A stretch of 60,000 nucleotides of DNA from Felis catus (lineage: Eukaryota). The notes below the pieces were generated by a model. It was not told where the DNA came from. It saw only the letters and a list, made by a program, of their open reading frames with translations, and ran no database searches. The stretch is taken from assembly GCF_018350175.1 (NCBI RefSeq), contig NC_058368.1:30134001-30194000 (forward strand), in the 5' to 3' direction. Both the position numbers and the translations under genes were made by a program. Below are positions 1-56,695 of the stretch, piece after piece. Within the stretch, counting starts at the first letter, position 1, and every line of letters begins with the position of its first letter.

Positions 1-1538
1 ATACTGGCTTCATAGAATGAGTCTGGAAGTTTTCCTTCCCTTTCTATTTCTTGGAATAGCTTGAGAAGGATAGGTATTATCTCTGCTTTAAACGTCTGGT
101 AGAACTCCCCTGGGAAGCCATCTGGTCCTGGACTCTTATTTGTTGGGAGATTTTTGATAACCGATTCAATTTCTTCGCTGGTTATGGGTCTGTTCAAGCT
201 TTCTATTTCCTCCTGGTTGAGTTTTGGAAGAGTGTGGGTGTTCAGGAATTTGTCCATTTCTTCCAGGTTGTCCAATTTGTTGGCATATAATTTTTCATAG
301 TATTCCCTGATAATTGTTTGTATCTCTGAGGGATTGGTTGTAATAATTCCATTTTCATTCATGATTTTATCTATTTGGGTCATTTCCCTTTTCTTTTTGA
401 GAAGCCTGGCTAGAGGTTTGTCAATTTTGTTTATTTTTTCAAAAAACCAACTCTTGGTTTCGTTGATCTGCTCTACAGTTTTTTTAGATTCTATATTGTT
501 TATTTCTGCTCTGATCTTTATTATTTCTCTTCTTCTGCTGGGTTTAGGCCGCCTTTGCTGTTCTGCTTCTAGTTCCTTTAGGTGTGCTGTTAGATTTTGT
601 ATTTGGGATTTTTCTTGTTTCTTGAGATAGGCCTGGATTGCAATGTATTTTCCTCTCAGGACTGCCTTCGCTGCGTCCCAAAGCGTTTGGATTGTTGTAT
701 TTTCATTTTCGTTTGTTTCCATATATTTTTTAATTTCTTCTCTAATTGCCTGGTTGACCCACTCATTCGTTAGTAGGGTGTTCTTTAACCTCCATGCCTT
801 TGGAGGTTTTCCAGACTTTTTTCTGTGGTTGATTTCAAGCTTCATAGCATTGTGGTCTGAAAGTATGCATGGTATAATTTCAATTCTTGTAAACTTATGA
901 AGGGCTGTTTTGTGACCCAGTATATGATCTATCTTGGAGAATGTTCCATGTGCACTCGAGAAGAAAGTATATTCTGTTGCTTTGGGATGCAGCGTTCTAA
1001 ATATATCTGTCAAGTCCATCTGATCCAATGTCTCATTCAGGTCCCTTGTTTCTTTATTGACCGTGTGTCTAGATGATCTGTCCATTTCTGTAAGTGGGGT
1101 GTTAAAGTCCCCTGCAATTACCACATTCTTATCAATAAGGTTGCTTATGTTTATGAGTAATTGTTTTATATATTTGGGGGCTCCGGTATTCGGTGCATAG
1201 ACATTTATAATTGTTAGCTCTTCCTGATGGATAGACCCTGTAACTATTATATAATGTCCTTCTTCATCTCTTGTTACAGCCTTTAATTTAAAGTCTAGTT
1301 TGTCTGATATAAGTATGGCTACTCCAGCTTTCTTTTGGCTTCCAGTCGCATGATAAATAGTTCTCCATCCCCTCACTCTCAATCTAAAGGTGTCCTCAGG
1401 TCTAAAATGAGTCTCTTGTAGACAGCAAATAGATGGGTCTTGTTTTTTTATCCATTCTGATACCCTATGTCTTTTGGTTGGCGCATTTAATCCATTTACA
1501 TTCAGTGTTATTATAGAAAGATATGGGTTTAGAGTCAT
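1..1538 (-). CDS. LINE-1 ORF2p, 5' part (APE endonuclease, linker, start of the RT-proximal region); partial at window edge
   Basis: Manual translation from the ATG at 1538: [18 protein letters not shown]...CCLQETH...VYAPN...GDFNTPL...TFSKIDH...SDHN...[16 protein letters not shown]...PDSFYEAS, with no stop or frameshift seen. It is absent from the ORF track because no stop lies inside the window. Confidence 0.95.
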
Positions 1539-1588
1539 TGTGATGTCTGTATGTTTTATGCTTGTAGTGATGTCTCTGGGACTTTGTC

Positions 1589-2482
1589 TCACAGGGTCCC
1601 CCTTAGGATCTCTTGTAGGGCTGGTTTAGTGGTGACAAATTCCTTCAGTTTTTGTTTGTTTGGGAAGACCTTTATCTCTCCTTCTATTCTAAATGACAGA
1701 CTTGCTGGATAAAGGATTCTCGGCTGCATATTTTTTCTGTCTAGCACCCTGAAAATCTCGTGCCAATTCTTTCTGGCCTGCCAAGTTTCAAAAGAGAGAT
1801 CAGTCACGAGTCTTATAGGTCTCCCTTTATATGTGAGGGCACGTTTACCCCTTGCTGCTTTCAGAATTTTCTCTTTATCCTTGTATTTTGCCAGTTTCAC
1901 TATGATATGTCGTGCAGAAGATCGATTCAAGTTACGTCTGAAGGGAGTTCTCTGTGCCTCTTGGATTTCAATGCCTTTTTCCTTCCCCAGTTCAGGGAAG
2001 TTCTCAGCTATTATTTCTTCAAGTACCCCTTCAGCACCTTTCCCTCTCTCTTCCTCCTCTGGGATACCAATTATGCGTATATTATTTCTTTTTAGTGTAT
2101 CACTTAGTTCTCTAATTTTCCCCTCATACTCCTGGATTTTTTTATCTCTCTTTTTCTCAGCTTCCTCTTTTTCCATAACTTTATCTTCTAGTTCACCTAT
2201 TCTCTCCTCTGCCTCTTCAAGCCGAGCTGTGGTGGTTTCCATTTTGTTATGCATTTCGTTTAAAGCGTTTTTCAGCTCCTCGTGACTGTTCCTTAGTCCC
2301 TTGATCTTTGTAGCAAGAGATTCTCTGCTGTCCTGTATACTGTTTTCAAGCCCAGCGATTAATTTTATGACTATTATTCTAAATTCACTTTCTGTTATAT
2401 TATTTAAATCCTTTTTGATCAGCTCATTAGTTGTTGTTATTTCCTGGAGATTCTTCTGAGGGGAATTCTTCCACTTGGTCAT
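1589..2482 (-). CDS. LINE-1 ORF1p (RNA-binding chaperone, 297 aa)
   Basis: ATG at 2482 ([11 protein letters not shown]...), coiled-coil region, RRM motifs [12 protein letters not shown] and RHIIVKL, C-terminal YPASLSF...[10 protein letters not shown], stop at 1589-1591. The ORF track's start at 2521 is a non-ATG upstream extension. Confidence 0.95.
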
Positions 2483-3405
2483 TTTGGATAGTCCCTGGCG
2501 TGGTGAGGACCTGCAGGGCACTTCCCCTGTGTTGTGGTGTATAACTGGAATTGGTGGGCGGGGCCGCAGTCAGACCTGATGTCTGCCCCCAGCCCACCAC
2601 TGGGGCCACAGTCAGACTGGTGTGTGCCTTCTCTTCCCCTCTCCTAGGGGCGGGATTCACTGTGGGGTGGTGTGGCCCGTCTGGGCTACTTGCACACTGC
2701 CAGGCTTGTGTTGCTGGGGATCTGGCGTATTAGCTGGGGTGGGTAGGCAAGGTGCACAGGGGCAGGAGGGGCAGGCTTAGATCGCTTCTCCTTAGGTGAT
2801 CCTCTTCAGGAGGGGCCCTGTGGCAGCGGGAGGGAGTCAGATCCGCTGCCGGAGGTTTGGCTCCGCAGAAGCACAGAGTTGGGTGTTTGCGCGGAGCGAG
2901 CAAGTTCCCTGGCAGGAACTGGTTCTCTTTGGGATTTTGGCTGGGGGATGGGTGGGAGAGATGGCGCTGGCGAGCGCCTTTGTTCCCCACCAAACTGAGC
3001 TCTGTCGTCAGGGGGCTCAGCAGCTCTCCCTCCCTTTGTCCTCCAGCCTTCCCGCTTTCCGAGCAGCGCTGTTAACTTATGACCTCCCAGACGCTAAGTC
3101 GCGCTTGTTGTGGGAACACAGTCCGTCAGGCCCCTCCGCTTTTGCAAGCCAGACTCGGGGTCTCTGCTTGGCCGGCGAGCCGCCCTTCCGCCCCGGCTCC
3201 CTCCCGCCAGTCCGTGGAGCGCGCACCGCCTCGCCGCCCTTCTTACCCTCTTCCGTGGGCCTCTCGTCTGCGTTTGGCTCCAGCGACTCCGTTCTGCTAA
3301 TCCTCTGGCGGTTTTCTGGGTTATTTAGGCAGGTGTAGGTGGAATCTAAGTGATCAGCAGGACGCGCGGTGAGCCCAGCGTCCTCCTAAGCCGCCATCTT
3401 GCCGC
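2483..3405 (-). promoter_or_regulatory. L1 5'UTR internal Pol II promoter with YY1 site
   Basis: CpG-dense segment upstream of ORF1; ccgccatcttg at 3391-3401 is the reverse complement of the YY1 motif typical of L1 5' termini. Confidence 0.85.
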
Positions 3406-11601: not shown

Positions 11602-14600
11602 CTATGGGAAACTTTTTCTAAGAGAAAATTGTATCATTTAAATCCTTGTTTTACGTACAGGGGAATTTGTGATTAGTATTGATACTCTATCATCGTTCTC
11701 TCTGATTTTCTCTAGGTTAAAGCACTTAAAGAGTTGATAAAACATCATTTGTTTCTATGAGATGCTTGTAGACAGTATTTTGGCTGACTTTAGGGCTGAA
11801 TTATTTTCCCTGAAGTCATTTCACAAAAAGGGCCAGCAATTTGCTGATAAGTTTTCTTATAAATGACTACACAGTGAAGACATACTAACACATTGATTAC
11901 ACAATGGAGTAATAGGAATGAGATAATGGTACTTCTTATGTGATGACTTAAAACAATTTCTCTGTTTTGGGGGCTCATACTCCTAAAGATTAGTTTTTTC
12001 AAGGTATGATTTTTAAAAAGAAAAGACATCCAGCTGTTAGGTAAATTTGTTTTCTTTCAAACAGTCTTCATAGCTTCAGTTTCTGGAACTTAACTCCTTG
12101 AAGACAGCAACATTGCATGCGATAATATTTTGCTCGTTCGCCTATAAGATGTTTGTTCAGTTGAGAAATGAAAATGGGTCTCAGTATACTATGTAGAGTG
12201 ATTTGTTCTAAATGGCACAAAAATGGTTTCTGGGCCAGGAAAGTATTAGTTCAAGGTCCTGTGAAAGTTGATGCTTATTCTGATGCATGGACACCATGGT
12301 CTAGTGAAATCTGCACATTAGGGACTTTCCTATAGCTCATTCCCGCGCCCTCCAACATATGTCATTAGTTTCACATAATAGGGAAGAGGAAATATGCAAA
12401 GGCACAGACACTATTCTGAATTAAGAGACCGATTTTTCCCCATGTTTACGATGAAAATTTGTTTATGTACAGTGTGCTTTTGTGTAAAGGGACACTCTGG
12501 TGTTATGTGCTCAGCAAAACAAAATATTCCCTTGAAATGATTAGAATGCAAATGCTGTTTTCTAGATCTGGTTTCCTGGCATTTTGAGGGGGGGGTGGCA
12601 GATGCTAATATATCTGGTGCTTTTGTTTTAGAAACAAAAGTAAACTGTAGGGAGTTTACCAAAATCCTGCCACGACACCCCCTTTAAAACCAAACCGAGC
12701 AAGGGAACCAAATTGCTGCTTTATCCACATTTTGGTCATCCCGGGGCGGTGGTAGTCCTCTGCTCCCATTGTTTGTTTTGCTTCATGTTTGACTCCGACA
12801 GAGAACAGAGCTACATTTTATGGACTTACGGTTTGGCAATATGCTGGCAAATGGGAAAACAAGCAACATAAACCAAATTTCTGCCACAATGCTTTTAATA
12901 TTGAGACAGACTTTTATCTAACAGAGCCAACAGAATGGAACTTGAGAGCACCCGCAGCTCAGGGCTGTAAACACAGCTTCCTGATGACACATCCCTGGGG
13001 GGGGACAGATCATACAGTTTCTATATTATGTGGCTTGTCATTCTACTGGCACAGAACTGATTTTCGCCTCAGAAAATGTCTCTTTCCTGAAACTCCAGCT
13101 GTCCTTCATTCATAAAGCAGCGTTTTAATAAGGTGGTTGTTTACTAGGAAAACAATGCTAATGTTAATAATGAATCACTAACAATATAGCATATTCCTTA
13201 TCGAAGATGGTCTACTTGTTGCCAAACAGCTGGAGGAAACGCGGGGGAAAATGCAATCGAGCATTTAAACATCATAGCTGGATGTTTCCAAACATAAGTA
13301 TCCAGATGCTTAGCATTGTGGAGGTAATGTGTTTGATTGCTTGCCTTTTTCATATTTTATCCGGATCTTTTGATGTTCTGTGGATAGAGTCATGACTATT
13401 CATTTTCAATATGCTGAGCAGTTTTCGCTCATCATGAATGGCGACAATAATGCTGAAGACTGGCAGAGGCCAAGCCTGGCAGAGATTGCTGGAGATGAGG
13501 GAGAAGAGGAAGAAATGAGACTCAGACTGTGGTTAAATGGGTCCCTCTCCTGGCTAATGTGTATGGAAGCATGTGCCTTTTAAACGGCATCAGCTCAATC
13601 AGGTTTCAAGCTTCAGTTAAGGGGAATGTAGGAATTAAGAAGCTGGATGGAGGGTCAGATTCTCTTGTTTTCCTTGAGACCCAGAGGCTGAATAACCAGG
13701 CCCTTCTTCAGGATACTCACTGCCAAGAAAGAAAGCTAACTGATTCTATGCCCGTGAGGATACTGGCTTAACAAGAATCTGGTCCAGCTAAACTATAGTA
13801 GAGTCGCTCCCTTCCTCAGACTGATGCCTCATCAGGCAAAATTAAAACTCTACAGTAAACAAGATGAAGTACTTTCTCTTTTTAGGATCTCAGAGTACCC
13901 AGCCCAAATCAATTCATGCTTCCTACTGCAAACTTCTCCGACATCGGGTTATCGGTACTTATAATTAGAGTCATTGCCAAATGTTCCACTAAATTAAAAT
14001 TCCTGCAAATTAATTATCTCATCAAAGGTGGCTCAGTTTCAGAACTGGGTTCGTAAATCCTGGCACTAAAATAGACGCAACCTTCTCCTAAGAGTGAAAG
14101 AAAAAAAAAATAGTCATTTACTGACATGTCCCTGCAGGAAACAATAACATTACAGATCATGTAGGAGCCAAGAATAGCCGGGGTATATTAATAACTCAGT
14201 CTGTTCCCTGATTTTATTCAAGATGACTGGTTAAAGAACACTGCACTGATGATGACTCCATGGCATGAGGAAGAATGTCATCATTAACATGTGGACCGTT
14301 TGGCATTTAGAACATTTCACACATAAAGAGAACTCAACACAAGACTATTTACTGTGCTTTAGACAGATGGTTTAATGTTTCTTTAGCCTTCAGCCTATCA
14401 GGCCACCCATGGTTTTCTTCAGCCAAGGGCTTTTTAGAAATAATTGGTCTCTAGCAATTTTCTAACAAGACTGACTGCGATCTATTTCCCTAAATCTTTT
14501 TCCTACCCTTAACTATCCCTTACAGTGGTTTGTGGCTGACAAACCTCCCTGACTGACACTGATTCCTCACATATAAGTAATTACGGACATAAAAGGAGAT

Positions 14601-15278
14601 GAAGGGGCTGAAATCTCATCATTAATGGTTTCTTTGCTACAGAAAAGCTATTTAGAAACGATTACTTCGGAAAACAGTTCTTCCCTGATTAGACGTTGCC
14701 TGACCCTGGAGAAGCTGTTCCCCCAGAATCTTTCAATACAGGAATTGATAACCCCACGTAGATGGATAACTGTGAGTGGCAAAAGATGCATACAGGCGTT
14801 GGTTTAAAAATGGTAGAGAAGAGTAATTGTGTCTCCGTCTGAGGAATATGTAAATGTGTTTAGAAGGGATACAGAGGCTGCAGATTCCCTGCTCCTGCCA
14901 TCAAAGTGGAAATCACTCACACTGGAAAAGCAAGCGTGTGCATTCTTACAGTGCAAACGTCTGTAGGACTCTTGATCCCCTGCACTTCCCTGGCCACAGT
15001 TCAGTTTTCCAGGCCCTTCTGCCAGCTCTTTTAGGGAACCACGTGACCTAAGGCCTGGAGACTCTACAGACTGGCCCAGAAGGATGGATGCTTGTTTGCA
15101 CATTCTTCTCTATGTAACCTCCCCAGTAAGGTTCAGAAGAGGCAAACTTAGGCCTGGAGCACAGAAAAGTGATGACACAGCAGAGAGGGTTTAGCGATCC
15201 GATGTATTTAGGAGTGCAAGTGTCTCCTGACTGCCTGCAGGAGAGGGCTTGTGGGACTGGAAGTCTCAGAGGGAACTT

Positions 15279-15323
15279 CTGATTGGCTTTTTTTCTCTTT
15301 AAGGGACAATGACGTCTCATTGG
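15279..15323 (+). promoter_or_regulatory. Candidate proximal promoter of the protocadherin pseudogene (reverse CCAAT boxes, CRE-like site)
   Basis: ctgattggct (15279-15288, reverse complement AGCCAATCAG), TGACGTC (15310-15316) and a second ATTGG (15319-15323) just upstream of the putative ancestral ATG at 15350. Motif evidence only. Confidence 0.35.
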
Positions 15324-15530
15324 AAGCTCAGATTTCCCGCTGACACTTAATGCTGGGCCTGACTGGAATCCTTGCTGGTTCTGTGGCTGCAGCTGGTGTC
15401 TGGGTTTTGCACTGCAACTGTCAGCTTTCCGCACCTATGAGGAAAAGGGGCCCACGGTACCGACATCGGTGGTCTGTCTGACCATGGCTTGTTTAATTCC
15501 CAGCTCGAAGTGCCAAGCCAGTTCTGTTTC

Positions 15531-16437
15531 ATGAAGTTCAACAGCTCGCTGCTCCGAGTGCGCGAGGGCGACGGGCAGCTGACCGTCGGGGACGCGGGCC
15601 TGGACCGCGAGCGGCTGTGTGGCCAGGCACCACAGTGCGTGCTGGCCTTCGACGTGGTCAGCTTCTCACAGGAGCAGTTCCGGCTGATACACGTGGAGGT
15701 GGAGGTGAGGGACATCAACGATCACGCGCCGCGCTTTCCCCGGGCCCAGATCCCCGTGGAGGTGTCCGAGGGCGCGGCTGTGGGCACGCGCATCCCGCTG
15801 GAGGTGCCGGTGGACGAGGACGTGGGAGCCAACGGGCTGCAGAGCGTGCGCCTGGCCGAGCCTCACAGCCCCTTCCGCGTGGAGCTGCAGACGCGCGCGG
15901 ACGGCGCCCAGTGCGCGGACCTGGTGCTGCTGCAGGAGCTGGACCGCGAGAGCCAGGCCGCCTACAGCCTGGAGCTAGTGGCCCAGGACGGCGGCCGCCC
16001 GCCGCGCTCCGCCACTGCCGCCCTCAGCGTGCGAGTGCTGGACGCCAACGACCACAGCCCGGCCTTCCCGCAGGGCGCCGTGGCCGAGGTGGAGCTGGCG
16101 GAGGACGCGCCCGTGGGCTCCCTGCTGCTGGACCTGGACGCAGCCGACCCCGACGAGGGCCCCAACGGCGACGTGGTGTTTGCCTTCGGTGCCCGCACCC
16201 CGCCCGAGGCGCGCCGCCTCTTCCGCCTGGACCCGCGCTCGGGCCGCCTCACCCTGGCAGGACCCGTGGACTACGAGCGCCAGGACACCTATGAGCTAGA
16301 CGTGCGGGCCCAGGACCGCGGTCCCGGGCCTCGGGCCTCCACCTGCAAAGTCATCGTGCGCATCCGCGACGTCAATGACAACGCTCCGGACATCACCATC
16401 ACCCCGCTGGCCGGCCCGGGCGCGCCTGCCGCCTCTC

Positions 16438-16471
<34 letters not shown>

Positions 16472-16622
16472 TGCTCTCGGGGGTGCGGACGCGACCTCGC
16501 CGACCGGACCTGGAACGCCGGAGGCCGGCGCCATCTCGCTGGTGCAGAGGGGGCGGCGCGCGAGAGCCTGGTGGCGCTGGTCAGCACCTCGGACAGAGAC
16601 TCGGGCGCCAATGGGCAGGTGA
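15531..16622 (+). CDS. Residual open frame of the pseudogene: PCDH8-like EC1(part)-EC3 plus poly-Ala, ending in a frameshifted tail (363 aa from the first in-frame ATG, no signal peptide)
   Basis: [36 protein letters not shown]...DVNDNAPDI is almost identical to mammalian PCDH8 as I recall it; homology moves to another frame after ~16545. Translation not demonstrated. Confidence 0.5.
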
Positions 16623-16930
16623 GCTGCGCCCTCTACGGGCAGGAGCATTTCCGGCTGCAGCCGGCCTACGCGGGCAGCTACCTGGTGGTGACCGCGGCGT
16701 CCCTGAACCGCGAGCGCATCGCTGAGTACAACCTGACGCTGGTGGCCGAGGACAGAGGCGCGCCCCCTCTACGTAGGGCGCGCGTGAGCGACGAGAGCGA
16801 CAAAGCGCCACTCTTCACGCGACCGGTCTAAGACGTGTCAGTGAGGGAGGACAACCCGCCTGGCGCCTACTTGGGCCGCGAAGGCCAGGTCACCTGCCGA
16901 CTGCTGGAGGCCGAAGAGGGTCGCGCCCAG
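15540..16930. promoter_or_regulatory. CpG island over pseudogene exon 1
   Basis: Visibly very high GC and CpG density, with a sharp left edge near 15540. Confidence 0.85.
16440..16475 (+). repeat. (GCC)10(GCT)2 trinucleotide repeat encoding 12 Ala
   Basis: Read directly from the sequence. Confidence 0.95.
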
Positions 16931-18284
16931 GACGCTGTGTCCCCCTACATCTCTGTGGACCCTATTACTGGGAAGCTGTGTGCACAACGGTGCTCTGATC
17001 GCAAGTAACTGGCTGAGCTGCAGCTGGGGCTGGAAGCTCTCGACGGCGGCTCTATGCAGCTCTGGGGCTGGGCCGTGGTGTGCCTGCATGTGGAGGACCA
17101 GAACGGGCACTCACTGGTCACGCTGCCAGAACGGCTGGTCACACTGCCACTCTTCAATGGCTCAGCCCAGCTGCCTCTGCTTCAGGGCGCGCGGCTGGGC
17201 TACCTGGTGACCCAAATGCACACGAAGGCCCCAACACAGAGCTAATTTCCACCGTAGCGGCGGCGGCCCCGCGGCGCTAGCGCCGCACCCGTTCACGGGT
17301 GAGCTGTCTTTTCAGCGCCGCTTGTCCCCACAGCCCACCAACCAGCTGACAGCGGTCGTCATGGTGCGGGACCCAGGCCAGTGGGCCTTTATCGCGCACC
17401 GCCACTTTGCTCCTAGTGCCCGCGGATTTGGCGCCACCTGGCGGAGAAGTGATGCTGGTGCCGCCTTCGCCGCGGCCGCCGCCAAAAGAGGGAGGGTAGG
17501 GACGCCCCTGGAGTCGCACAGCGCAGAGAGCAGGGCGACAGCCTGGCTTCCTGGTTGTCTTGGCAGGTGTTTTGGCTAGCGGCTGTGGCCTTCTGCTGGC
17601 GGCCATTGCCATCGAGACTTGTTCCAGCCAAGGCGAGGCCAGGACGCGGAAGAAGAAGCTTCGTGGGCATAGCTTGAGCAGGTACCACGCGAGGAGTGGC
17701 CAGGCTGGTCCAAGTCGCAGAGCATCGGGGGCTGACTCTGGGGGCTTTGAGTTGAGGTTCTTCGGGGAGACACTGGCCCTTTCCGTTTACACAGAGGCCC
17801 AGGAGGGCGAGGCTGCGGAGATTTCCCGGTCTGGGGGTAGTGGGGTGTTCTTGTGCTCCTCCCTTCGAAAGAGGAGTGGGATCCTGTGGGCCCTGGTAAA
17901 GTACCCCAGCAGTTTTAGGGCCCCTCATGAACGGTTAGTCGATTTTCCTGCCCAGACGTTAGGAAAATTCAGAGCCTGATCTGGTCTGGGACTTCAAAGG
18001 ACTGAGTTTTCCGGACTTTTTATTTTTTATTTGAGAGGAAAATTTCTTCACAGATGAAGGCAGAAGGAGGCATGGTGGTCATGTTTCGAGGAGGCCCACG
18101 TCTCTTTGTGCTGTTTTTGCCCCTGCTAACTTCCTTCTGGGTCCAGTTGGAACATCTTCGTCCCTCAGGGTTTAAATGCTATCTTTCTGAAGCACTCCAG
18201 AGGAGGGATATTGTGCCCTGTCTGGCAGCTTTGATATCTGAGCGTGAAAAATTAACTGCTGCTCTCACCCCTCTTTTTAAATAG

Positions 18285-18352
18285 GGTTCAGGCTCAGGTC
18301 CTTTTCATTCCCCATCCCTGTGTGGAGAGGGTAAATCTGCTGCGAGTTTAAG
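18285..18352 (+). pseudogene. Pseudogene exon 2 (68 nt)
   Basis: Pyrimidine tract plus TAG acceptor (AG 18283-18284), open frame GSGSGPFHSPSLCGEGKSAASL, donor AG|GTAATT; its phase-2 end matches the next exon. Confidence 0.6.
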
Positions 18353-18447
18353 GTAATTTCAGAGTACGTACGGCTCTGTCTAAGCGACGTGTTTGACGTT
18401 TTGTACGTTTATGGATAACAGAGTGAATCTGTCCTTTTCACTCCCAG

Positions 18448-18583
18448 TACACATTCAAATCCAGATGAATTTAGTGAGAAAGATAGCGGAAGAGGAGACA
18501 GTGAATCGAATGACAGCAGTTCTGACATCAGTATAGAGCGGGCTTGAAGAAAGCGTCTTTTCCAGTGATTGCGAAGCGAGAGG
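18448..18583 (+). pseudogene. Pseudogene exon 3 carrying the delta-protocadherin CM1 motif
   Basis: Acceptor ccttttcactcccag, translation THSNPDEFSEKDSGRGDSESNDSSSDISIE then frameshift to GLKKASFPVIAKRE, donor G|GTAAGT at 18584. Compare PCDH8 [28 protein letters not shown]. Confidence 0.85.
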
Positions 18584-19534
18584 GTAAGTTCAAACCTGTG
18601 ACTTTGAAGCTCTCCCTCACAAAGCCCTGATAATTCTGGATGCCTGAATGAATTAAAAACAAACAGACAAGTGGTCCGGACTGTGCAGTCATAGAGGGGG
18701 TATGCCGAGTGCTACTGAACAGAGCTAACAATTTTTTTTTTGAACGCTTCTTATTTAGCTGATTCTATGTATTTTGAATACTTTACGCTAACTGACTTAT
18801 TTATTCCCCATAATAAATCCAGTAGGGTAGGGACTTGCCCCAGTGTTGGAAGTAAGGTCTCAGCCCAGGATTCCAGCTATAGATTTCTTCCTCTTAATCA
18901 TCCTATCTAAGTGGCCTCTATTAATGCAAACTATTAAAACACAAAAAATCAGAATATTCTGGTTAGTAATACTAAAATAATTTTGTACCACAGCACTAAG
19001 GAGAACTTCCCACACATGGGGATTTCAGAAGTGGATAGCATATGAATAGGTACATTTTTTTTATAGGTCAGGATGCCATTTGCTGGGAACATATGACTTT
19101 GTGGTTTTCTTCGGCCATGCTTTGTTTGTAGAATCTTGCACCCACACAACATCATGCTATTCAGTCTAGCTCCTGTCATGTCTGGGAATTTCGCTTTAGG
19201 TCAAAATCTCTCTAATGGTGTCTAGTTCTATGGGGGAAAGTTGATTATGGACTTGGTGTTAGTTTCCATGGAAGTGAGCACTAGATCTTTTAGTCCTTCA
19301 AAGCAGATACCTTACTCTCAAAGATGCGTCCTAATGGTATGTCCTCCTGATTCATATATTTCTTCACGTTATGGATATTTTCGCCCTATGTTTGGTTCCT
19401 TCAACATTTTTTTTTTTTTTAAACAAGATGACTTCTAGACGCATCTATATCCTGGTCCCCTTCTGAATGTTCTCTGGTGTGTAAATATCTTTCCTAAAAT
19501 GAGACCCTTAGAGTTGAATACAGAACCATAGAAC

Positions 19535-20888
19535 CAGTCTCTCTCCAGAGCTCCAAACTAATATTCCCCGTTGCTTACTCAATGTCTCCATTTGGGGAAC
19601 TGGTAGACATGCTACATGTTCAGAACTGAAGTCTTGATTTCTGTTCTACAAATTTGTTCTTTCTCTAACGTGTGTGCCTCAGTAAATGACAACTCTGTTC
19701 ACTTAATTTCTTGCCCTGGCCAAAGTCCTTGTGTCATTCTTGATTTGTGTCTTCTCCCACTCAATTTCCAGTCCATCAGCAAATCTGATTAGATTTACTT
19801 CGAAAATATATTCCCAATCTGGGCTCTTCTCACCACCTTCTTTGCTGCTATCCTCCCCAGGCACGATCATCTCTTGCCTGGATAGATCCAAACTGGACTG
19901 TGTTTCCATGCTTGCCCTCCTGCAGTCTGTTTTCCAAATCATATCACATAATTGAGCTCTCCAAAGATTTCTCGCTTAAAATGAAAGCCAAAAATTCTTA
20001 TCATGGCATCCCAATTACTACTGTTGTGTAACAAAATGTAACTCAAAATGTAGCAGTTCGAAACAACAATTTTATTATGCTCATGGATTCAGTGGATCAT
20101 TTTGGACATCTCAAGGTTTAGACACATGTCTGGCATGTGGATTAGGATTATTCAGGGTCTAAGATTGCTTACTTGGGCGTGGGAAGAGGGGCTACATGTG
20201 CCCTTTACATGTGGTTCGATTTTCTGACACCATGGCAGCCATAGGCAAGCATGAATGTTCCTCCAAATAAGATAGAAGTCACATCCTCTTTTATAACTCA
20301 GTCTCTGAAATGACATTGTCATTTATGTTCTACTGGTCCAAGCAGTCTTAAACCCACCCAGATTCAAAGGGAAAGGGAAGAGTCCCCCATCTCTACACTG
20401 AAAAGTTATTAAAGAATTTTGGGGCCATATTTGTAAATAAGCCACACGTGGCCCATAAAGTCTTGTATTATCTGGCCCCTGGTTGCTTCTTCCAAATGAT
20501 TTATTACTCTTCCGCTTGATAATTTGGGTCATTATATTGGCTCTCTTGATTCGTTCTTGAACAAACCAAACATATTTCATCTCAGACCTCAGGGTCTTGC
20601 GATTCCTTCTGCTTGGTATGCTCTTTCTCAAGATATCCATATTGTTTGCATCCTTCCTTCATTTATGCCTGTGTTCAAATGTCTATTTTCTCAAAGAGAT
20701 TTTCCATACCTCAAGCTGTCTCCCCCGGCTGTCACTCTCCACCCTGCTTTATTTTCCTTCATGCCATTTATCACTGCCTGACATTACTTTATGTATTTGT
20801 TTATTATTTGTTCTGTATTCCATGTTGAATCATCAAACCTCAAATATGTACTTAAAAAATGAATGAGTGAATGAATGAATGAATGAAA
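19535..20888 (+). mobile_element. L2 LINE 3' region (L2a-like), interrupted by an MLT1 LTR
   Basis: CT-rich L2 motifs (ctcagggtcttgcgattccttctgcttggtatgctcttt) and a terminal (TGAA)n. Confidence 0.8.
20010..20445 (-). mobile_element. MaLR solo LTR (MLT1-type)
   Basis: Reverse LTR end ctgttgtgtaacaaaa...aaacaacaatttttattatgctcatggattc and acccagattcaaaggga. Confidence 0.7.
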
Positions 20889-21311
20889 GGTATAGTCTAA
20901 CTTATAAATTGCAACTGTATGACCGTTTCTCATGATCATATTGCATTTTAGACTAGGGTAAAATTGCTGGTGTTTTTTTTAGAAGTTCCATTGTGTTGCT
21001 TTCCTTTCTAGAATATTTTAGTGTCATCTCAAAGCTTGAAGGTTTTATAGCAAGTTTATCTTTTCGGATCATTTAATGTTAAATCGTCCTTTTCAAACAA
21101 AGATCAAATTCCTGGAGCTCCTAGTGTTTATTCTCTGTTTAGAGAATTACCAGCTTATTCTTTCCATAACACAGTTCCCTCCTCGTAGTAGTAGGCAGGC
21201 TCTCTGAGTCCCTTGGTAGCTCCAGGTGCTGCTGTGGCCAACCATAAGGTGATTGAAGCAATGCATTCAATGTGGGAGGGTCTAGTCACTTGGTAATAAC
21301 AACCACATTTC

Positions 21312-21531
21312 TTTTTTTTTTTTTATTTTTTTTAACGTTTATTTTTGAGACAGAGAAAGACAGAGCATGAACGGGGGAGGGGCAGAGAGAGAGGGAGACA
21401 CAGAATCGGAAACAGGCTCCAGGCTCTGAGCCATCAGCCCAGAGCCTGACGCGGGGCTCGAACTCACCGACCGCGAGATCCTGACCTGGCTGAAGTCGGA
21501 TGCTCAACCGACTGAGCCACCCAGGCGCCCC
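21312..21531 (-). mobile_element. Feline SINEC_Fc
   Basis: Full SINEC body; TSD ccacatttctt on both sides. Confidence 0.95.
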
Positions 21532-21574
21532 CCACATTTCTTCTTATACTCAACAGCAATGTTTTATTTACTTA

Positions 21575-21830
21575 TTTATTAAACAGTTACACAACACTTA
21601 CTATGTGCCAAGAACTGTGCTAGGTGCTCCATAAATATTAACTCACTTAATCCTCATAATAATGCTTTTAAGCAGGTACCCTCACTTAAGCTCATTTTGC
21701 ATAGGGGGAAACTGAGGTGTAGAGTTGTTAGAGTATTTTGATCAAAACCACCCAGCTGTAAGGGCAGAGGTGGGTTTTCCATTCTGGGAGTCTGGCTCCA
21801 GAGTTCATGCTTTTAATGTTCTGCTGTAGT
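21575..21830 (-). mobile_element. MIR SINE, near full length
   Basis: acttactatgtgccaagaactgtgctaggtgct...gggaaactgaggtgtagag...tctggctccagagttcatgc. Confidence 0.85.
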
Positions 21831-22184
21831 GTATTTTCAGTGGGTTTTTAAATACTTACTTTATGGGTCTTCTAAAGATTTAGGACTGATTTACATTCCT
21901 TGGGATGTTTCTGTCTTTGGCTTTAAGTGAGATGTTCTGATTTATGGCTTGGTTTATACTCCAGCTCTCTGCTGCATTTTCTTGTAAAACGTTTAGTGGG
22001 ATTATTGAAAGGGTGACACATGGGTGATGGCAAGATAATTGAATTAGATGTTGATAGCTTGGGTTAAAACATTTAGTGAAGTTATTTTTATTAATTTTTC
22101 ATCTCATTCTTAATAGTTAATGCAGAGAATAAATGGATTAATAAATACGCTGATATTCTTCAGAAATTAGCTTTATATATTTAT

Positions 22185-22801
22185 TTATTTTCCTACAAGT
22201 TTTTATTTAAATTCTGGTTAGTTAACATGCGGTATAATATTAGTTTCACGTGTAGGATTTAGTGATTCATCATTTACATACAATACCACATTACAGGTGC
22301 CCTCCTTTTTTTTAATGTTTATTTTTGAGAGATAGAGAGAGTGAGCTGGGAAGGGGCAGAGAGAGAGAGAGAGAGCGAGCAGGAGAAAGGGTCCGAATCA
22401 GGCTCTGTGCTGACAGCAGAGAGCCCCATGTGGGGATAGAACTCACAAGCCATGAGATCAAGACCTGAGCTGAAGCCGGATACTCAAGCAGTGAGCCACC
22501 CGAGGAGCCCCACAAGTGCCCTCCTAAACACGCATCACCCATTTAACCCATCTCACCCCCAACTCCCTCCAGCAACCCTCAGTTTGTTCTCTATGGTTGA
22601 GAGTGTGCTTTATGATTTGCCTGTCTCTTACTTTTATTCTTCCTAGGTTCATCTATTTTGTTTCTTAAATTCCACATATGAGTGAAATCAAATATTTGTC
22701 TTTCTTTGACGTATTTCACTTAGCATAATACACTCTAGCTTCATCCATGTCATTGCAAATGGCTACAGTTTTCTTTTTGATGGCTGAGTAATATTCCATT
22801 C

Positions 22802-22846
<45 letters not shown>

Positions 22847-23155
22847 ATATGTATGTATATATATATGCCACATATTCTTTATCCATTCATCAGTAGATGG
22901 ACATTTGGGCTCTTTCCATAATTTGGCTATTGTTGATAGTGCTGCTATAAACATCAGGGTGCATGTATCCCTTCAAATCAGTATTTTTGTACCCTTTGGG
23001 TAAATACCTAGTAGTGCAATTGCTGGATCATAGGGTAGTTCTATTTTTAACTTTCTGAGGAACCTCCATACTGTTTTCCAGAGTGGCTGCACCAGTTTGC
23101 ATTCCCACCAACAGTGCAAGAGGATTCCCCTTCCTCCACATCCTCACCAACACCT
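22185..23155 (-). mobile_element. Carnivore L1 3' end containing a nested SINEC (~22305-22512) and (TG)n (~22804-22845)
   Basis: Reverse strand encodes MFIAALSTIAKLWKEPKCPSTDEWIK (ORF2 C-terminus) followed by the 3'UTR; the SINE is flanked by aca(g/a)gtgccctcct. Confidence 0.92.
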
Positions 23156-23453
23156 ATTGAGACACTTCAGTTTAGATTGTAATTTTTACCATTCCTCCCA
23201 CGAAAGCTATATTAGAAATTCCGGCAAACAATTTAATTTAGCTGCTTGAATTTTATTTCCATTTCATTTCATCAGTGTACCAGCAGGTGGAGGTACAAGT
23301 CATTGACAGAAGATCCAAAGGAAGAAAAATAAATACATAAACGACTAAAAAACTAGTCCCTGAACAACTGAATATTGTTTGCATTTTGAAGCATATTGCC
23401 AAATAGCATTCTGACTTTTTAAATATTTCACACGACTCCATTTTATTTCCAAG

Positions 23454-23821
23454 TTGCTTCCGATCATTCGGAATGAAAAACATTTAGGGATCCTGAAAGA
23501 TTCATCGAGGAATCTCAAAGCAGCAGGACTTTCATCACCTCATGAAAATAGCCACGGGATTGCACTTTCTTCAAGTATTTTTACCCTCACATTCCCCAGC
23601 TGAGAAATATGAATTTCCAACGAGTCTACTCAGAACTCAAAAGAGGTTATTTTCGAGCCTGTGAATCCCAAAGTGAAGGGTTGCAAAGTGTGTATGGCAG
23701 AGTTCAAACCTGCAGGCCAGCCCTGTCGCCTCCCCCTATCCTCAGACAGAATGATGAATTAAATCACCCTTCAGTGGATGGATCACCTTCACATACTTCA
23801 GAAATCGCCACTTCACCCTGA
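23454..23821 (+). pseudogene. Pseudogene terminal exon remnant (cytoplasmic tail)
   Basis: Acceptor ttttatttccaag at 23441-23453; a phase-1 join is in frame with ...KRGYFRACESQSEGLQSVYGRV...LSPP...HTSEIATSP*. This recalls PCDH8 VGLQSVYEKV...LLSPP and the PAPC terminus HPSEIATTF*. In-frame stops occur in the 5' part. Confidence 0.7.
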
Positions 23822-24767
23822 AATGCTGCAACTCATATAGACAGTTATATTTTGGGAATATACACATTTATGTTTCTGTCGAGTATTTATAAGCCAAGTT
23901 GCATACACGAGCCTCCTACTTTTGATAGACATTGCCCTAAATTATGTGAACAGTCGATGTCAGAGCACGTGATGCTTTTTATATAATCCAGGATATTTTG
24001 CCAAAAAGTCTTAGATATAAGACCCAGATATAATAAGTGAACGTGTATTTTATATTCTAAGATCATTTGTGGATTTAAATGAAATCTTCAGTCTAGCTGT
24101 ACGTTGGTGTTTGGGTATTTGCAATTCTACTGGGAACACAATTTAACTTGGAATGACTTTAGGCTGGATTAAGAATCTGGACCCCAGCCGTAACCACAGA
24201 CCCGATGGGGAGAAAGAAGAAGCAGCATTGGGGTGAAGGAGAAAGTTCAGGCAGCACTGGGGTGGGGAACCCGAATAATTTCTCTAGCCTGAATCAGAGG
24301 TGGTTGCTGAGTGCTTAATGGGCAGAACAGTGGCAGATTCTGATAGTGTGTGAAAATCAAATGCAGGTGGCTGGTCATGTTGTGCTCCTGGGCATTCAAC
24401 CCATTCATCACAGCAGCTCACTCAGAGGTGGAGCTGCAGGGAGCAGCACTGAGAGGAGTAGAGAGAGTCTTCAGGCCTCAGCCACCTGCATTACTATTCC
24501 CAGCAGGACTGGGACAGGAGACGGGGGGCGGAAGGAAGGATTGGACCCAAAATGCAGTGACACGCAGGCTACCTGAGCAGCTGGGCCTCATGAGTGACTG
24601 ACCAGATTGGAGGGGCAGCCAAGCTGGGTGATGGGATGGAAACAGCTGGATTGTGTCTTCTTTTCTTCAAGATTGGCTCAGACTGTGGGAAGGATTGAGT
24701 CTGCAAGGACAGGACACTAATGTCTCCCCAAGTGGAAGTGTCTGGGTCCGTCAAGATACGACGGGCA

Positions 24768-24975
24768 TGAACTGTATTCCCAATACGATAACCACTAGCC
24801 ACATGCGGCTGCTTAAATTTAAATGAATGAAAACTCCATGCAATGAAAAATTCAGTTCCTTGGTCACATTAGCCACATTTCAGCTGCTGAATACCACACA
24901 TGGCTAGTGGCTACAGTATGGGGCAGAGCAGCTATCAAACATTCCATCATCACTATTCTACTGAACAGCACTGAT
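24768..24975. mobile_element. MER3-like hAT-Charlie DNA transposon
   Basis: Internal inverted pair ccactagccacatg / catggctagtgg and aaaaattcagttccttggtcacattagccacatttca. Confidence 0.8.
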
Positions 24976-25954
24976 GTGGAAGAAGAAGCAGGCCAGAGGA
25001 CCGCCTCCATGGGCTGGGGGTGTTGAAGGCAGCCAGTGACCCACAATGCTTGCTTAGCACACATACGGGAGACTGCGTGTTCTCTTTTCTCCATGCTCAC
25101 ACTTCCCTGGTCGGCGACAGTCTTTTATTGGTTCATATCAATATTTCAAAATGGATTGACACATTATATTATTTATTAGAAAATATTTGAAAAATGTCTA
25201 AAGACAAGAATTCCCAATAGTACAAGGTTTCCCGTATGCCTGGGGATTTTCTGAAGGCTCCCGTGCCATTCCAGCTAGCACCTCAAGTTTATAGTCCTCA
25301 TGTCCAGTCCTATAACCTTAGGGATTTTGCAGCAATATTCGTGATAAAACCAAGCCACTCATATTCCTCAGCTCTCCCAAGAAATAATGCAGCAGTTTTT
25401 AAGACCAGTAATTCATTTTTTAGCTATGGTCAGGCAAGAAGCTACTAAGTACTCTAAACTCCTCTTGTCACTGGCCTCCCATAGAAAATCACTGCTGTAG
25501 AAATGTATAACAATTTAGTTATACATTGCATTATACTGGTTTGCAAGTCCAGTAGGGTCTTTAGAATCAGTGTGCTATTCCAAGTATCAGATTTCCAGAA
25601 TGGGGGGGTCTAGGCCCCAGAGAAACTGCAGCTAACGAGAACATACCTAGCTTTACCTGAGACACGCCTTTCAAATAAAATACACTTACCTTTTGGGTTA
25701 TGTTGAATAATACTTCAACTTCATTAGAGTGATTTGTTATGGAAGTGCATTCTGTGTGAAACGTTGTTTCTAGAAGCCAAGAACCTAAAACTTTGACTCA
25801 AGTTTATAAACGTAGGATTAGATGGATTTGTTTTTTCTTAAAACCAGGTTCACATGGTTTTGGAATGGTCGCTTCTACCTTAATTATGATTCCTCAAGCA
25901 GTTTTCCTGACTTTTATGACGGCATTCTCAGTGACAGACAGTAATTGGAAACAT

Positions 25955-51071: not shown

Positions 51072-52269
51072 CATATTGCTTTAATTCTTGCCACACTGCA
51101 ACTCAACTTTATTATTGCACAGATTTATCAGTAAGGTTGGACTTTAGGACCTCAGTTTCCTATAGGGTGCACGTTGCAAAATTCTTGTGGCAGGTGTTTA
51201 TTGCCAAAAATGAACCCTGTGTTCTGCATTATTTTTTTTCTGGGCTGTTTGCCTGGCTGTTCTGAGGCCTCAGAACTGGTAGAGAGTTTAAAGGCTGTAT
51301 TTGCTGCGACTCAGTTGTTCCTGGAAATATACCCCTCCTCCTGGGCAGAAGGTCTAGGATGCCAATATGTCTTGCGTCCCTTCCTCAACCCCTCCATCCA
51401 GACCCTCCGGCATCTTTCTCCCTTAGCCTCATGATATCACTCCGGTTAAAATTAAATCATTTCATGCCACCTTATTTGGGCTACCAAGCATATAGTCCCA
51501 TAGAGCATGTGTGAACTCACATTGTAACATACTCTGCTGTGAGATAACATGCGTGCACAGGAAGACTTTGCAAACTGCAAGATGTTATCAAATACTGGCT
51601 TTTCTTACTGGCTTGATTCCTGAGCCCTGAGATTTCATAGGGATTCCTCAGCACCTTCATAGGGGGTCAGGCCTTCCCACCTCTCTTTACCTCAAGCAAT
51701 TCCATTTATAATCTCTTTTATGCTCTGCTGCTAAAAAGTTTGAAAATCGCTGATCTCATCAAACCCTTGGCCTGTGCATGAATCCTCTTTATGACATCTC
51801 TTACAGTTGATTGTCCTGCCTTTGCCTGATTACATCCAGTGACGGGGACCTCATTACTTTACCAAGTAGCACATTCTATTTTAGGAAAGCTTGTATTGTT
51901 CTTTGTTTCACAATTCTTTAGGCCAAGAGAGAAGAAATCCTAGCTAACTGATCCTGCTTTGGTTTTGGTTAACTGAGATTTTTCTCTGTAAACATTTTTT
52001 ATGCACAGATAATCATTCTAGGTATTTTGGTGGTTCGTGTCATTATTTGATGCCTTCCTTGAGTAGAAGTGAAGGTAGGTATGTTGCCCCTACCACTTTC
52101 ATTTGTACATCTTAATGGTGAGAAATAAAATAACCATAAGGTAACACTGGGTGATCATGAGCAATTCACCAGCCAATGTTGTGGTTCATGAGATGTGCAG
52201 CTGAGTTAGGGGCAGGACGGAGGCCTATGTTGAGGGTCTACCCTGTGTTCAGCCCATCGTATGTATTTT

Positions 52270-56544: not shown

Positions 56545-56695
56545 CGGTCTGTTCTCTTGCTTATGTCTGTGTGACCTTGGACCAGGGACCTTACCCTGGC
56601 AGAGCTCTGACTTCTTCTGTAAAATAAGGACAATCATCACATGCTTAGAGGTTATTCCCAGGGTTAAATGCAATCATACAGAAGTGAAGCATTTC
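56545..56695 (+). mobile_element. MIR fragment
   Basis: ctgtgtgaccttggaccagg...cttctgtaaaataaggacaat...gggttaaatg. Confidence 0.7.

What the first reader, a model, noticed from the sequence alone, without database searches (positions are those of the whole stretch)
15350..23821. The PCDH8-like pseudogene may be the dead mammalian ortholog of amphibian/fish PAPC rather than a copy of PCDH8
Seen: outside the central block the decayed frames read [15 protein letters not shown] (EC1 start), PLFNGSAQLPLLQGARLGYLVTQM (EC6), GETLALSVYTEAQ (juxtamembrane) and a C-terminus HTSEIATSP*, with no CM2 motif (WACTAECKILGHSDRCW) visible. Recalled knowledge: Xenopus PAPC has GTVIAVLSQHSIFNT, PLLNNGSGEVLLPISAPQNYLVFQL, SESCQLSINTESE and ends HPSEIATTF*, whereas mammalian PCDH8 has TLAEDLHMK, KDTVVARV and a CM2. 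Inference: this is an ancient tandem paralog of the PAPC lineage, i.e. a unitary-type pseudogene disguised as a PCDH8 duplicate. If true, mammalian PCDH8 may not be the real PAPC ortholog.
Basis: partly seen in the sequence, partly recalled or inferred. Interest (0 to 1): 0.85.

Follow-up and report, generated by a model that had tools for sequence, protein, structure and literature searches.

The report
Dead PCDH8-like gene patched by PCDH8
This is the broken remnant of an old sister gene of protocadherin-8 that opossums and turtles still keep intact, and it looks like a recent PCDH8 copy only because its middle was overwritten with PCDH8 sequence.

Summary
Window 15309-23821 (+) is a four-exon pseudogene with 10 premature stops and 7 frameshifts. 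From start codon to last residue it is colinear with the intact 'protocadherin-8-like' (8L) proteins of 7 marsupials and 4 turtles.

Outside the central block it sits inside the 8L clade as sister to marsupial 8L (support 100/99). A clade with eutherian PCDH8 is rejected (AU p 7e-32). Frog, bird, turtle and mammal PCDH8 form a separate clade, so the duplication is old.

Positions 15535-16761 are 99.2% identical to this genome's own PCDH8, which lies 360 kb away. Positions 16762-16962 are about 82% identical. Both are gene-conversion tracts. The same cassette is also homogenised in turtles (99%) and marsupials (85%).

No second 8L copy was found in the genome, so this is a unitary pseudogene.

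Equating 8L with amphibian PAPC (pcdh8.2) could not be tested, because no PAPC sequence could be fetched. The support is indirect: published construct ends and the tree's rooting. That PAPC is a paralog of the Xenopus PCDH8 ortholog, not that ortholog itself, is already in print (Harrison 2020).

The parts
15309..15534 (+). Exon 1, 5' non-converted part: ATG at 15309-15311, signal peptide and start of EC1. Stops at 15348 (TAA) and 15360 (TGA); frameshifts at 15426 and 15454.
   Evidence: Frameshift-aware alignment to Dromiciops 8L. 37-41% identical to marsupial 8L against 26% to eutherian PCDH8 over 58-70 columns.
15535..16761 (+). Recent gene-conversion tract copied from PCDH8 (EC1 middle to EC4/5). 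It carries one 1-nt deletion (frameshift near 16542-16544) and a 6-nt poly-Ala indel.
   Evidence: For 15541-16750, 9 substitutions and 7 gap columns in 1210 nt against the same genome's PCDH8; the first mismatch after 15534 is at 15668. In the tree it falls inside eutherian PCDH8.
16762..16962 (+). Older conversion tract, or decayed edge of the block. Stop at 16829 (TAA); 15-nt and 30-nt deletions.
   Evidence: For 16751-16962, 38 substitutions and 45 gap columns in 212 nt against own PCDH8. blastn alignment ends at 16962.
16963..17895 (+). Exon 1, 3' non-converted part: end of EC5, EC6, transmembrane helix and juxtamembrane region. Stops at 17006 and 17497; frameshifts at 17216, 17251, 17382 and 17860. 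GT donor after 17895.
   Evidence: 149/302 identical to Dromiciops 8L against 76/282 to own PCDH8. Tree and AU tests.
17676..17683 (+). Internal splice donor of exon 1 (GAGCAG|GT, cut after 17681), used in RNA-like contigs.
   Evidence: Joints 17681 to 18285 and 17681 to 18448 with GT..AG ends, one contig each in run X17. Sequence.
18285..18352 (+). Exon 2 (68 nt), flanked by AG and GT.
   Evidence: tblastn with 8L residues 866-887, 68-73% identical. Splice sites. Acceptor used in a contig of X17.
18448..18583 (+). Exon 3 (136 nt) with the KDSGRGDSE motif. In-frame TGA at 18545 and 18566.
   Evidence: tblastn 69-74% identical to 8L. Splice sites and stops. Acceptor used in a contig of X17.
23454..23821 (+). 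Exon 4, the ancestral last exon, ending ...NHPSVDGSPSHTSEIATSP then TGA. In-frame stops at 23474, 23543 and 23549.
   Evidence: Colinear with the last 116-118 residues of marsupial 8L, E 3e-11 and 1.5e-13. 8L proteins end ...SE(I/V)(S/A)TSF. PCDH8 proteins give no hit here.
25848..25876 (+). Start of a downstream, non-ancestral exon joined to exon 3 in one contig. It is preceded by AG.
   Evidence: The loose end of an X17 contig after 18585 matches window 25850-25876 exactly. Acceptor sequence.

Best explanation
SHOWN.
- The locus is the dead copy of 'protocadherin-8-like' (8L). 8L is a paralog of PCDH8 with its own N-terminus, EC6, membrane-proximal region, cytoplasmic tail and C-terminal ...SE(I/V)(S/A)TSF. 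It is predicted intact in 7 marsupials and 4 turtles.
- All four coding exons, their splice sites, the ATG and the stop position remain. The reading frame is broken by 10 premature stops, 7 frameshifts and several deletions.
- No intact 8L copy was found elsewhere in the genome, so this is a unitary pseudogene.
- The functional PCDH8 lies 360 kb away on the opposite strand, beyond an olfactomedin-domain gene. It has repeatedly served as donor in non-reciprocal recombination (gene conversion).
- A very recent tract (15535-16761, 99.2% identical) and an older one (16762-16962, about 82%) replaced the 8L sequence from mid-EC1 to mid-EC5.
- This is why the locus holds a 393-codon open frame and looks like a young PCDH8 duplicate.
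- The same cassette, with the same edges to within about 10 alignment columns, is homogenised between 8L and PCDH8 in turtles and marsupials.

INFERRED.
- The flanks were already too different when conversion began, so each new tract stops at the old edges.
- The 8L/PCDH8 split predates the frog-amniote split.
- The documented Xenopus paralogs of pcdh8.1, namely PAPC (pcdh8.2) and probably PCNS (pcdh8l), are the amphibian members of the 8L lineage (my odds about 0.6).
- The relic is still transcribed and spliced, into a non-coding RNA that skips the ancestral last exon.
For: - Colinear tblastn hits of Dromiciops and Monodelphis 8L run from residue 2 to the last residue across 15315-23815. PCDH8 proteins hit only the block, weakly the transmembrane region, and the KDSGKGDS motif.
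- The C-terminus and N-terminus are of 8L type.
- Tree of the exon-1 3' part (40 rows, 302 columns): window plus 7 of 7 marsupial 8L at 100/99; all 11 8L rows plus the window at 100/98; all 24 PCDH8 rows, including 9 frogs, at 99/99.
- The concatenated non-converted columns (568) give the same three groupings. That is the quick tree, because the careful search did not finish.
- AU test rejects window plus 4 eutherian PCDH8 as one clade: lnL difference 105.6, p 6.7e-32.
- Exons 2-4 are 43-45% identical to 6 marsupial 8L rows and 35-40% to turtle 8L. They are 22-24% identical to the full-length PCDH8 rows; the exon-1-only row of this genome's own PCDH8 is 10%.
- Conversion: at DNA level. In the central-block tree each 8L groups with the PCDH8 of its own lineage.
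- Within-species identity, block against exon-1 3' flank: Emydura 451/455 against 108/273; Dromiciops 406/478 against 97/293; window 452/472 against 76/282.
- Genome searches with PCDH8 and with 8L found only these two loci above 48% identity.
- An OLF-domain exon lies between the two genes.
- PAPC link: published ectodomain ends for pcdh8.2 are E.. at +1 and ..TD. They match turtle 8L (E.. and ..PTD). PCDH8 has K.. and ..VTA/S. The same check reproduces the published ends of pcdh8.1, pcdh10, pcdh12, pcdh18 and pcdh19.
- Splicing.
Against: - No PAPC, PCNS, fish, bird, lizard or monotreme 8L-type sequence was in hand, so the PAPC step is untested.
- An origin of 8L inside amniotes is rejected only at p 0.013. 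That hypothesis was named after the tree was seen.
- The pseudogene row is a long branch (0.89), and treekit warns that long branches meet.
- The N-terminal part is short (58-70 columns). One frog PCDH8 row (39% over 49 columns) scores among the 8L rows.
- The 8L proteins are database gene models, not characterised proteins, and the Vombatus model has an aberrant C-terminus.
- The central-block tree is a quick tree, and the branches that place the window next to carnivoran PCDH8 are not starred (92-94).
- Transcription rests on single contigs in one run whose RNA label is a guess. Two raw RNA runs gave 0 reads, which is no test.
Confidence: 0.86

Rival explanations
1. The locus is dead 8L, but 8L is not the PAPC lineage. 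On this view 8L arose in the amniote stem and evolved fast, while PAPC and PCNS are amphibian-only duplicates of pcdh8.1 or an even older paralog.
For: - The AU test against an amniote-only origin is only p 0.013, and long branches flank the node.
- No PAPC sequence was examined.
- The search with the last exon found 3 proteins among 19 candidates, none amphibian. The tool needs shared 5-residue words, so this is weak.
Against: - Frog PCDH8 sits inside the PCDH8 clade at 99/99, with 8L outside it.
- The published pcdh8.2 construct ends match 8L, not PCDH8.
- Xenopus is documented to have paralogs of pcdh8.1 (PMC7082078 and PMC7339444, passages read).
Confidence: 0.3
2. The locus is an ordinary duplicated pseudogene: a mammalian-era copy of PCDH8 whose ends simply decayed faster than its middle.
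For: - The central 1.4 kb is PCDH8-like, and the top database hits of the long open frame are all mammalian PCDH8.
Against: - The AU test rejects it: p 6.7e-32.
- The flanks match intact marsupial and turtle 8L along their whole length, including a C-terminus that PCDH8 does not have.
- The edge at 15534/15535 is knife-sharp. 22 of the 35 bases before it differ, and then 133 bases match without a mismatch. Decay does not produce such an edge.
Confidence: 0.02
3. The PCDH8-identical block is an assembly artefact, with PCDH8 reads collapsed into this locus, and is not real conversion.
For: - 99.2% identity over 1.2 kb in a 73% G+C stretch is the kind of place where assemblies err.
- I did not lay reads across the block edges.
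Against: - The block has its own frameshift, a 6-nt indel and 9 substitutions, and it grades into an 82% tract.
- A raccoon-dog gene model built on the same type of locus joins a PCDH8-like block to 8L-type last exons.
- Turtles and marsupials show the same block.
- Contigs of other runs extend 196 and 458 nt leftwards from 16963.
Confidence: 0.03

Closest known systems
'Protocadherin-8-like' gene models of marsupials (Dromiciops, Monodelphis, Sarcophilus, Phascolarctos, Macrotis, Sminthopsis, Vombatus) and turtles (Emydura, Chelonoidis, Eretmochelys, Dermochelys)
   Same: Same start (M-S/T-H-x-K-L-x-F-P), same EC6, transmembrane and tail sequence, same four-exon layout as mapped here, and same C-terminal ...SE(I/V)(S/A)TSF. 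Both lack the WACTAECKILGHSDRCW motif. The window is their sister in the tree.
   Different: The window copy is broken by 10 premature stops and 7 frameshifts. Its branch is about 2.6 times longer than the marsupial path from the shared node. Its central cassette carries eutherian rather than marsupial or turtle PCDH8 sequence.
PCDH8 (arcadlin; called 'PAPC' in mouse and chick papers)
   Same: Same delta2-protocadherin build. Positions 15535-16761 are 99.2% identical to it at DNA level. The two are neighbours on the chromosome.
   Different: The flanks are 26-27% identical at protein level. PCDH8 has a K-T-V mature start, the WACTAECKILGHSDRCW motif and a different C-terminus. It forms a separate clade with frog, bird and turtle orthologs.
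Xenopus PAPC (pcdh8.2) and PCNS (pcdh8l)
   Same: Both are documented as paralogs of, or 'like', the Xenopus PCDH8 ortholog (PMC7082078, PMC7339444, PMC3601302 and PMC5601995, passages read). The published pcdh8.2 ectodomain starts with E and ends ..TD, as in turtle 8L.
   Different: No sequence was available, so membership of the same lineage is inferred and not tested. PAPC and PCNS are functional genes of gastrulation, somites and neural crest.
Human PCDH8P1
   Same: It is named as a PCDH8 pseudogene and cited beside OLFM4 (PMC12274101, passage read). Here an OLF-domain gene lies between PCDH8 and the pseudogene. It is expressed in human brain according to a TWAS (PMC10864182, passage read), and spliced contigs were seen here.
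   Different: It was not aligned here because no human sequence was used. That it is the ortholog of this locus rests on name and position only.

Membership tests
8L ('protocadherin-8-like') lineage of the PCDH8 subfamily | Non-converted ectodomain and transmembrane sequence groups with 8L and not with PCDH8 | tested here: met
   Window plus 11 of 11 8L rows at 100/98. A clade with eutherian PCDH8 is rejected at p 6.7e-32.
8L ('protocadherin-8-like') lineage of the PCDH8 subfamily | C-terminal exon ending ...NHP...SE(I/V)(S/A)TSF, with the stop at the same place | tested here: met
   The window ends ...NHPSVDGSPSHTSEIATSP then TGA. 10 of 11 8L models end ...TSF (the Vombatus model is aberrant). 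PCDH8 ends differently.
8L ('protocadherin-8-like') lineage of the PCDH8 subfamily | No WACTAECKILGHSDRCW motif in the tail; KDSGKGDSE motif kept | tested here: met
   The alignment shows a degenerate stretch there in 8L and in the window. KDSGRGDSE is in exon 3.
Unitary pseudogene | Disabled by stops and frameshifts | tested here: met
   10 premature stops and 7 frameshifts.
Unitary pseudogene | No functional copy of the same gene in the genome; ortholog intact in other species | tested here: met
   Genome searches with PCDH8 and with 8L found only PCDH8 and this locus. The tool used a stricter first look, so weak hits may be missed. Intact models exist in 7 marsupials and 4 turtles.
Processed (retrocopied) pseudogene | Intronless copy of an mRNA | tested here: not met
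   Three introns with AG/GT ends lie at the places where the 8L protein alignment breaks.
Gene-conversion tract | Sharp-edged block near-identical to a paralog in the same genome, with deeply diverged flanks; the block's tree follows species and the flanks' tree follows paralog | tested here: met
Ortholog of amphibian PAPC (pcdh8.2) | Groups with Xenopus pcdh8.2 in the non-converted parts | not testable with these tools
   No PAPC sequence was reachable.
Ortholog of amphibian PAPC (pcdh8.2) | Duplication older than the frog-amniote split | tested here: inconclusive
   The free tree says yes (99/99 for a PCDH8 clade that includes frogs). The AU test against an amniote-only origin gives p 0.013.
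Ortholog of amphibian PAPC (pcdh8.2) | Same position relative to olfm4 and pcdh8 in Xenopus | not testable with these tools
   No amphibian genome is held.

The most novel reading that the evidence does not exclude
Amphibian PAPC and PCNS are the surviving frog members of the 8L lineage. If so, eutherian mammals lost the true PAPC ortholog, leaving the PCDH8P1-type relic, while marsupials and turtles kept it. Mouse and human 'PAPC' work would then concern the paralog PCDH8. The relic's PCDH8-identical cassette is kept fresh by ongoing conversion, and the locus still makes a spliced RNA.
Probability: 0.55. Interest if true: 0.75.

Novelty: new member of a known kind. Interest (0 to 1): 0.62.

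Why it matters
[quoted passage not shown] Xenopus workers list PAPC as a paralog. A dated loss of the second gene in eutherians, with intact copies in marsupials and turtles, would show which experiments compare like with like. It would also give marsupials as a mammalian system in which the gene can be studied.
- **Human genetics.** Human PCDH8P1 was the top novel TWAS signal for major depression in one study (PMC10864182, passage read). It also sits at the OLFM4 childhood-obesity locus (PMC12274101, passage read). If the human copy likewise carries a block nearly identical to PCDH8, short reads can be assigned to the wrong gene.
- **Gene conversion.** The same mid-EC1 to mid-EC5 cassette is homogenised in three lineages, even into a dead copy. 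This is a clean natural case of conversion confined by diverged flanks.

Tried and rejected
- The search of protein representatives with the converted open frame listed only giant multi-cadherin proteins and was of no use.
- The first protein search was filled by mammalian PCDH8 isoforms of about 973 aa.
- Three long 'Fat 4-like' hits proved to be fused clustered protocadherins.
- The protein-atlas search gave nothing usable for the 159-aa frame. For PCDH8 it gave only cluster names without ids.
- The metagenome scan with the 8L alignment returned 19 loci. Of the four whose open frames I read, the two best (L009, L010) are fish-like clustered-type protocadherins and the other two (L013, L016) are other cadherin-repeat proteins. 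None is PAPC-like.
- Full-text searches for PCDH8P1, pcdh8l, pcdh8.2, 'PCDH8-like' and PAPC plus pseudogene found no paper that treats the mammalian pseudogene as an ancient paralog.
- A search for four C-terminal motifs found 0 papers.
- The supplement of PMC7082078 holds no pcdh8.2 sequence.
- Chen 2007 (PAPC cysteines) and Chal 2017 (chick PAPC) are not held.
- Raw RNA runs X24 and X21 laid 0 reads on 16963-18650. The tool itself marks this as no test.
- The search of earlier findings returned only bacterial papC notes.
- A careful tree of the concatenated flanks did not finish in time, so the quick tree is what I report.
- I did not fold any structure, because none was needed for this question.

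Full report
**What is there.**
- The window is C1:30134001-30194000 of a 2.43-Gb mammalian assembly. Its best PCDH8 matches are carnivoran.
- The true PCDH8 lies at C1:29787065-29789728 on the minus strand. That is 360 kb to the left and in the opposite orientation.
- An olfactomedin-domain exon lies between the two genes at C1:30013220-30013981 on the plus strand.

**The mosaic.**
- blastn of window 14001-25000 against the genome's own PCDH8 locus aligns only 15535-16962.
- A base-by-base comparison shows two layers.
- Positions 15541-16750 carry 9 substitutions and 7 gap columns in 1210 nt. The gaps are a 6-nt poly-Ala indel and a 1-nt deletion that shifts the frame.
- Positions 16751-16962 carry 38 substitutions, plus 15-nt and 30-nt deletions.
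- The 5' edge is sharp. 22 of the last 35 bases before 15535 differ, and the next mismatch is at 15668.
- Outside the block a forced alignment gives about 50% identity.

**Finding the true relatives.**
- The first protein search returned only mammalian PCDH8.
- A search with the last exon found three pseudogene-derived products among 19 candidates. One was a 616-aa raccoon-dog model that joins a PCDH8-like block to the same last exons. The other two were unnamed contig ORFs.
- For the last search I used 558 residues of this genome's own PCDH8 and asked for proteins of 978 aa or more.
- That search showed that marsupials and turtles each have two genes: PCDH8 and 'protocadherin-8-like' (8L).
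- The 8L proteins end ...NHP..N.L....SE(I/V)(S/A)TSF and start M-S-H-R-K-L-.-F-P. The window has ...NHPSVDGSPSHTSEIATSP then a stop, and M-T-S-H-W-K-L-R-F-P.
- All PCDH8 orthologs, from frog to mammal, have other ends.

**Anatomy.**
- tblastn and a frameshift-aware alignment to Dromiciops 8L are colinear from the ATG at 15309 to the stop at 23819.
- The exons are 15309-17895, 18285-18352, 18448-18583 and 23454-23821. All have AG/GT borders.
- Exon 1 has 5 stops and 7 frameshifts. Exon 3 has 2 stops and exon 4 has 3.
- Only one lesion, the 1-nt deletion, lies inside the recent tract.
- The WACTAECKILGHSDRCW motif of PCDH8 is missing. It is equally absent from the intact 8L proteins at the homologous place.

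**Trees: the data set.**
- I aligned 40 rows: the window's read-through with X at each break, 34 database proteins, the own PCDH8 exon-1 frame, and four outgroups from this genome.
- The outgroups are L003, L005, L006 and L008. Their ectodomain ends match the published constructs of pcdh18, pcdh10, pcdh12 and pcdh19.
- Before any tree was built I left out 19 redundant or unnamed PCDH8-family rows:
  - 9 further eutherian rows;
  - 1 partial bird row (P0344);
  - 4 further frogs (P0356, P0361, P0364, P0376);
  - 5 Logan proteins.

**Trees: results.**
- Exon-1 3' part (302 columns, careful search): window plus 7 of 7 marsupial 8L at 100/99; those plus 4 of 4 turtle 8L at 100/98; all 24 PCDH8 rows, including 9 frogs, at 99/99.
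- treekit flags the window (0.89) as a long branch.
- Holding the window with the 4 eutherian PCDH8 rows costs 105.6 lnL units, p-AU 6.7e-32.
- Holding all amniote rows together, meaning 8L is born after the frog split, costs 12.4 units, p 0.013. That hypothesis was named after the tree was seen.
- The concatenated flanks (568 columns) give the same groupings. This is the quick tree, because the careful search did not finish.
- Exons 2-4 are 43-45% identical to 6 marsupial 8L rows and 35-40% to turtle 8L. They are 22-24% identical to the full-length PCDH8 rows.
- The N-terminal part (58-70 columns) leans the same way: 37-41% against 26%. It is too short to stand alone, and one frog row scores 39%.

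**Concerted evolution.**
- In the central-block tree (458 columns, quick) each 8L sits with the PCDH8 of its own lineage.
- The window sits with own and Callorhinus PCDH8. Marsupial 8L sits with marsupial PCDH8. Turtle 8L sits inside turtle PCDH8, and the Emydura pair is nearly identical.
- Within-species identity in the block against the exon-1 3' flank:

| Pair | Block | Flank |
|---|---|---|
| Emydura | 451/455 | 108/273 |
| Dromiciops | 406/478 | 97/293 |
| Window | 452/472 | 76/282 |

- The high-identity stretch spans alignment columns 385-915 in the turtle pair, 385-910 in the marsupial pair and 394-910 in the window.
- So the same cassette has been converted independently, and at different times, in three lineages.

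**Unitary status.** Genome searches with PCDH8 and with 8L find only PCDH8 and this locus. The next hits are other protocadherins at 48% identity or less. The tool warns that weak hits may be missed.

**The PAPC step.**
- I could not fetch PAPC or PCNS.
- Harrison et al. 2020 (PMC7082078, passages read) call Xenopus pcdh8.1 the ortholog of PCDH8 and pcdh8.2 (PAPC) its paralog. A 2020 review (PMC7339444, passages read) says 'the Xenopus Pcdh8 paralog PAPC'. A 2013 review (PMC3601302, passages read) calls PAPC 'Pcdh8-like'.
- PDB 6vg1, which by my recall is Harrison's Xenopus pcdh8.1 EC1-6 structure, aligns closely with mammalian PCDH8. The X. tropicalis protein in my set reproduces the published 641-residue K-T-V...L-V-T construct exactly.
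- At the same columns the published pcdh8.2 construct (E-I-A...L-T-D, 646 residues) agrees with turtle 8L (E-x-x...P-T-D, about 652-654). It does not agree with any PCDH8 row (K-T-x...V-T-A/S).
- This evidence, plus the rooting, makes PAPC and PCNS the likely frog members of 8L. It amounts to a few residues and one p value of 0.013.
They remain unverified.

**RNA.**
- Contigs of run X17, whose RNA label is a guess, join 17681 to 18285 and 17681 to 18448 with GT..AG ends, one contig each.
- They also run from the exon-3 donor into window 25848 onward, past the ancestral last exon.
- This points to a spliced non-coding transcript.
- Metatranscriptome contigs that also cover the intron may be DNA.
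- Two raw RNA runs gave no reads, which is no test.

**Literature.** Searches for PCDH8P1, pcdh8l, pcdh8.2, 'PCDH8-like' and PAPC plus pseudogene found no paper in the held library that reads the mammalian pseudogene as a lost ancient paralog, or that describes the marsupial and turtle 8L genes. Subscription journals are mostly not held.

**Verdict.** The finding is real and interesting. It is a new case of known processes: unitary gene loss plus gene conversion. It bears directly on the PAPC/PCDH8 homology muddle. The PAPC identity itself still needs one straightforward tree.

Noticed in passing
window 3-2569 (-): Two long open frames, 541 aa (running off the window's start) and 326 aa. The translations look like LINE-1 ORF2 (endonuclease and reverse-transcriptase start) and ORF1. 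This looks like a young L1 insertion.
   Followed up: no
window 21286-21543 (-), 22312-22542 (-), 58006-58407 (-): Three stretches give near-identical translations (...GAPGW.SRLS.RLQPG.D.AV.EFEP.V.LWADGSEPGACF...). They are probably copies of one SINE family. A (CA)n-type run lies near 22780-22880.
   Followed up: no
window 25848-25876 and run X17: One contig joins exon 3 of the pseudogene to a downstream exon that is not part of the ancestral gene. Another skips exon 2. The locus may give a spliced non-coding RNA.
   Followed up: partly
proteins P0351/P0330 (Emydura), P0316/P0291 (Dromiciops): In turtles and marsupials the intact 8L gene shares the same mid-EC1 to mid-EC5 cassette with PCDH8 (99% and 85% identical), while the flanks are 25-46% identical. 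This is recurrent conversion between two functional genes.
   Followed up: yes
8L alignment A1, column of C669 (EC6, ...GRPSLSC...): All 10 aligned 8L proteins have a cysteine here, where the PCDH8 proteins aligned with them have ...GRPPL.T(T).... A review states that PAPC forms cis dimers through ectodomain cysteines (PMC7339444, passage read). The window has R at this place.
   Followed up: no
protein P0328: One source names a turtle (Platysternon) PCDH8 protein 'serine/threonine-protein kinase VRK1', while UniRef calls it Protocadherin-8. The record looks mislabelled.
   Followed up: no
proteins P0271, P0272 (unnamed Logan contigs): In two other sources the last exon of the same pseudogene is read through the old stop (...TSF then W). 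In P0272 it is also open across the places where this window has three stops, so those lesions are lineage-specific.
   Followed up: partly
window 52000-58000: G+C rises to 0.48-0.53 with no long coding-like frame. This could be a CpG-rich promoter or a non-coding gene.
   Followed up: no
loci L009, L010 (metagenome contigs): Metagenome records hold fish-like clustered-type protocadherin exons of 670-847 codons, presumably host DNA.
   Followed up: partly
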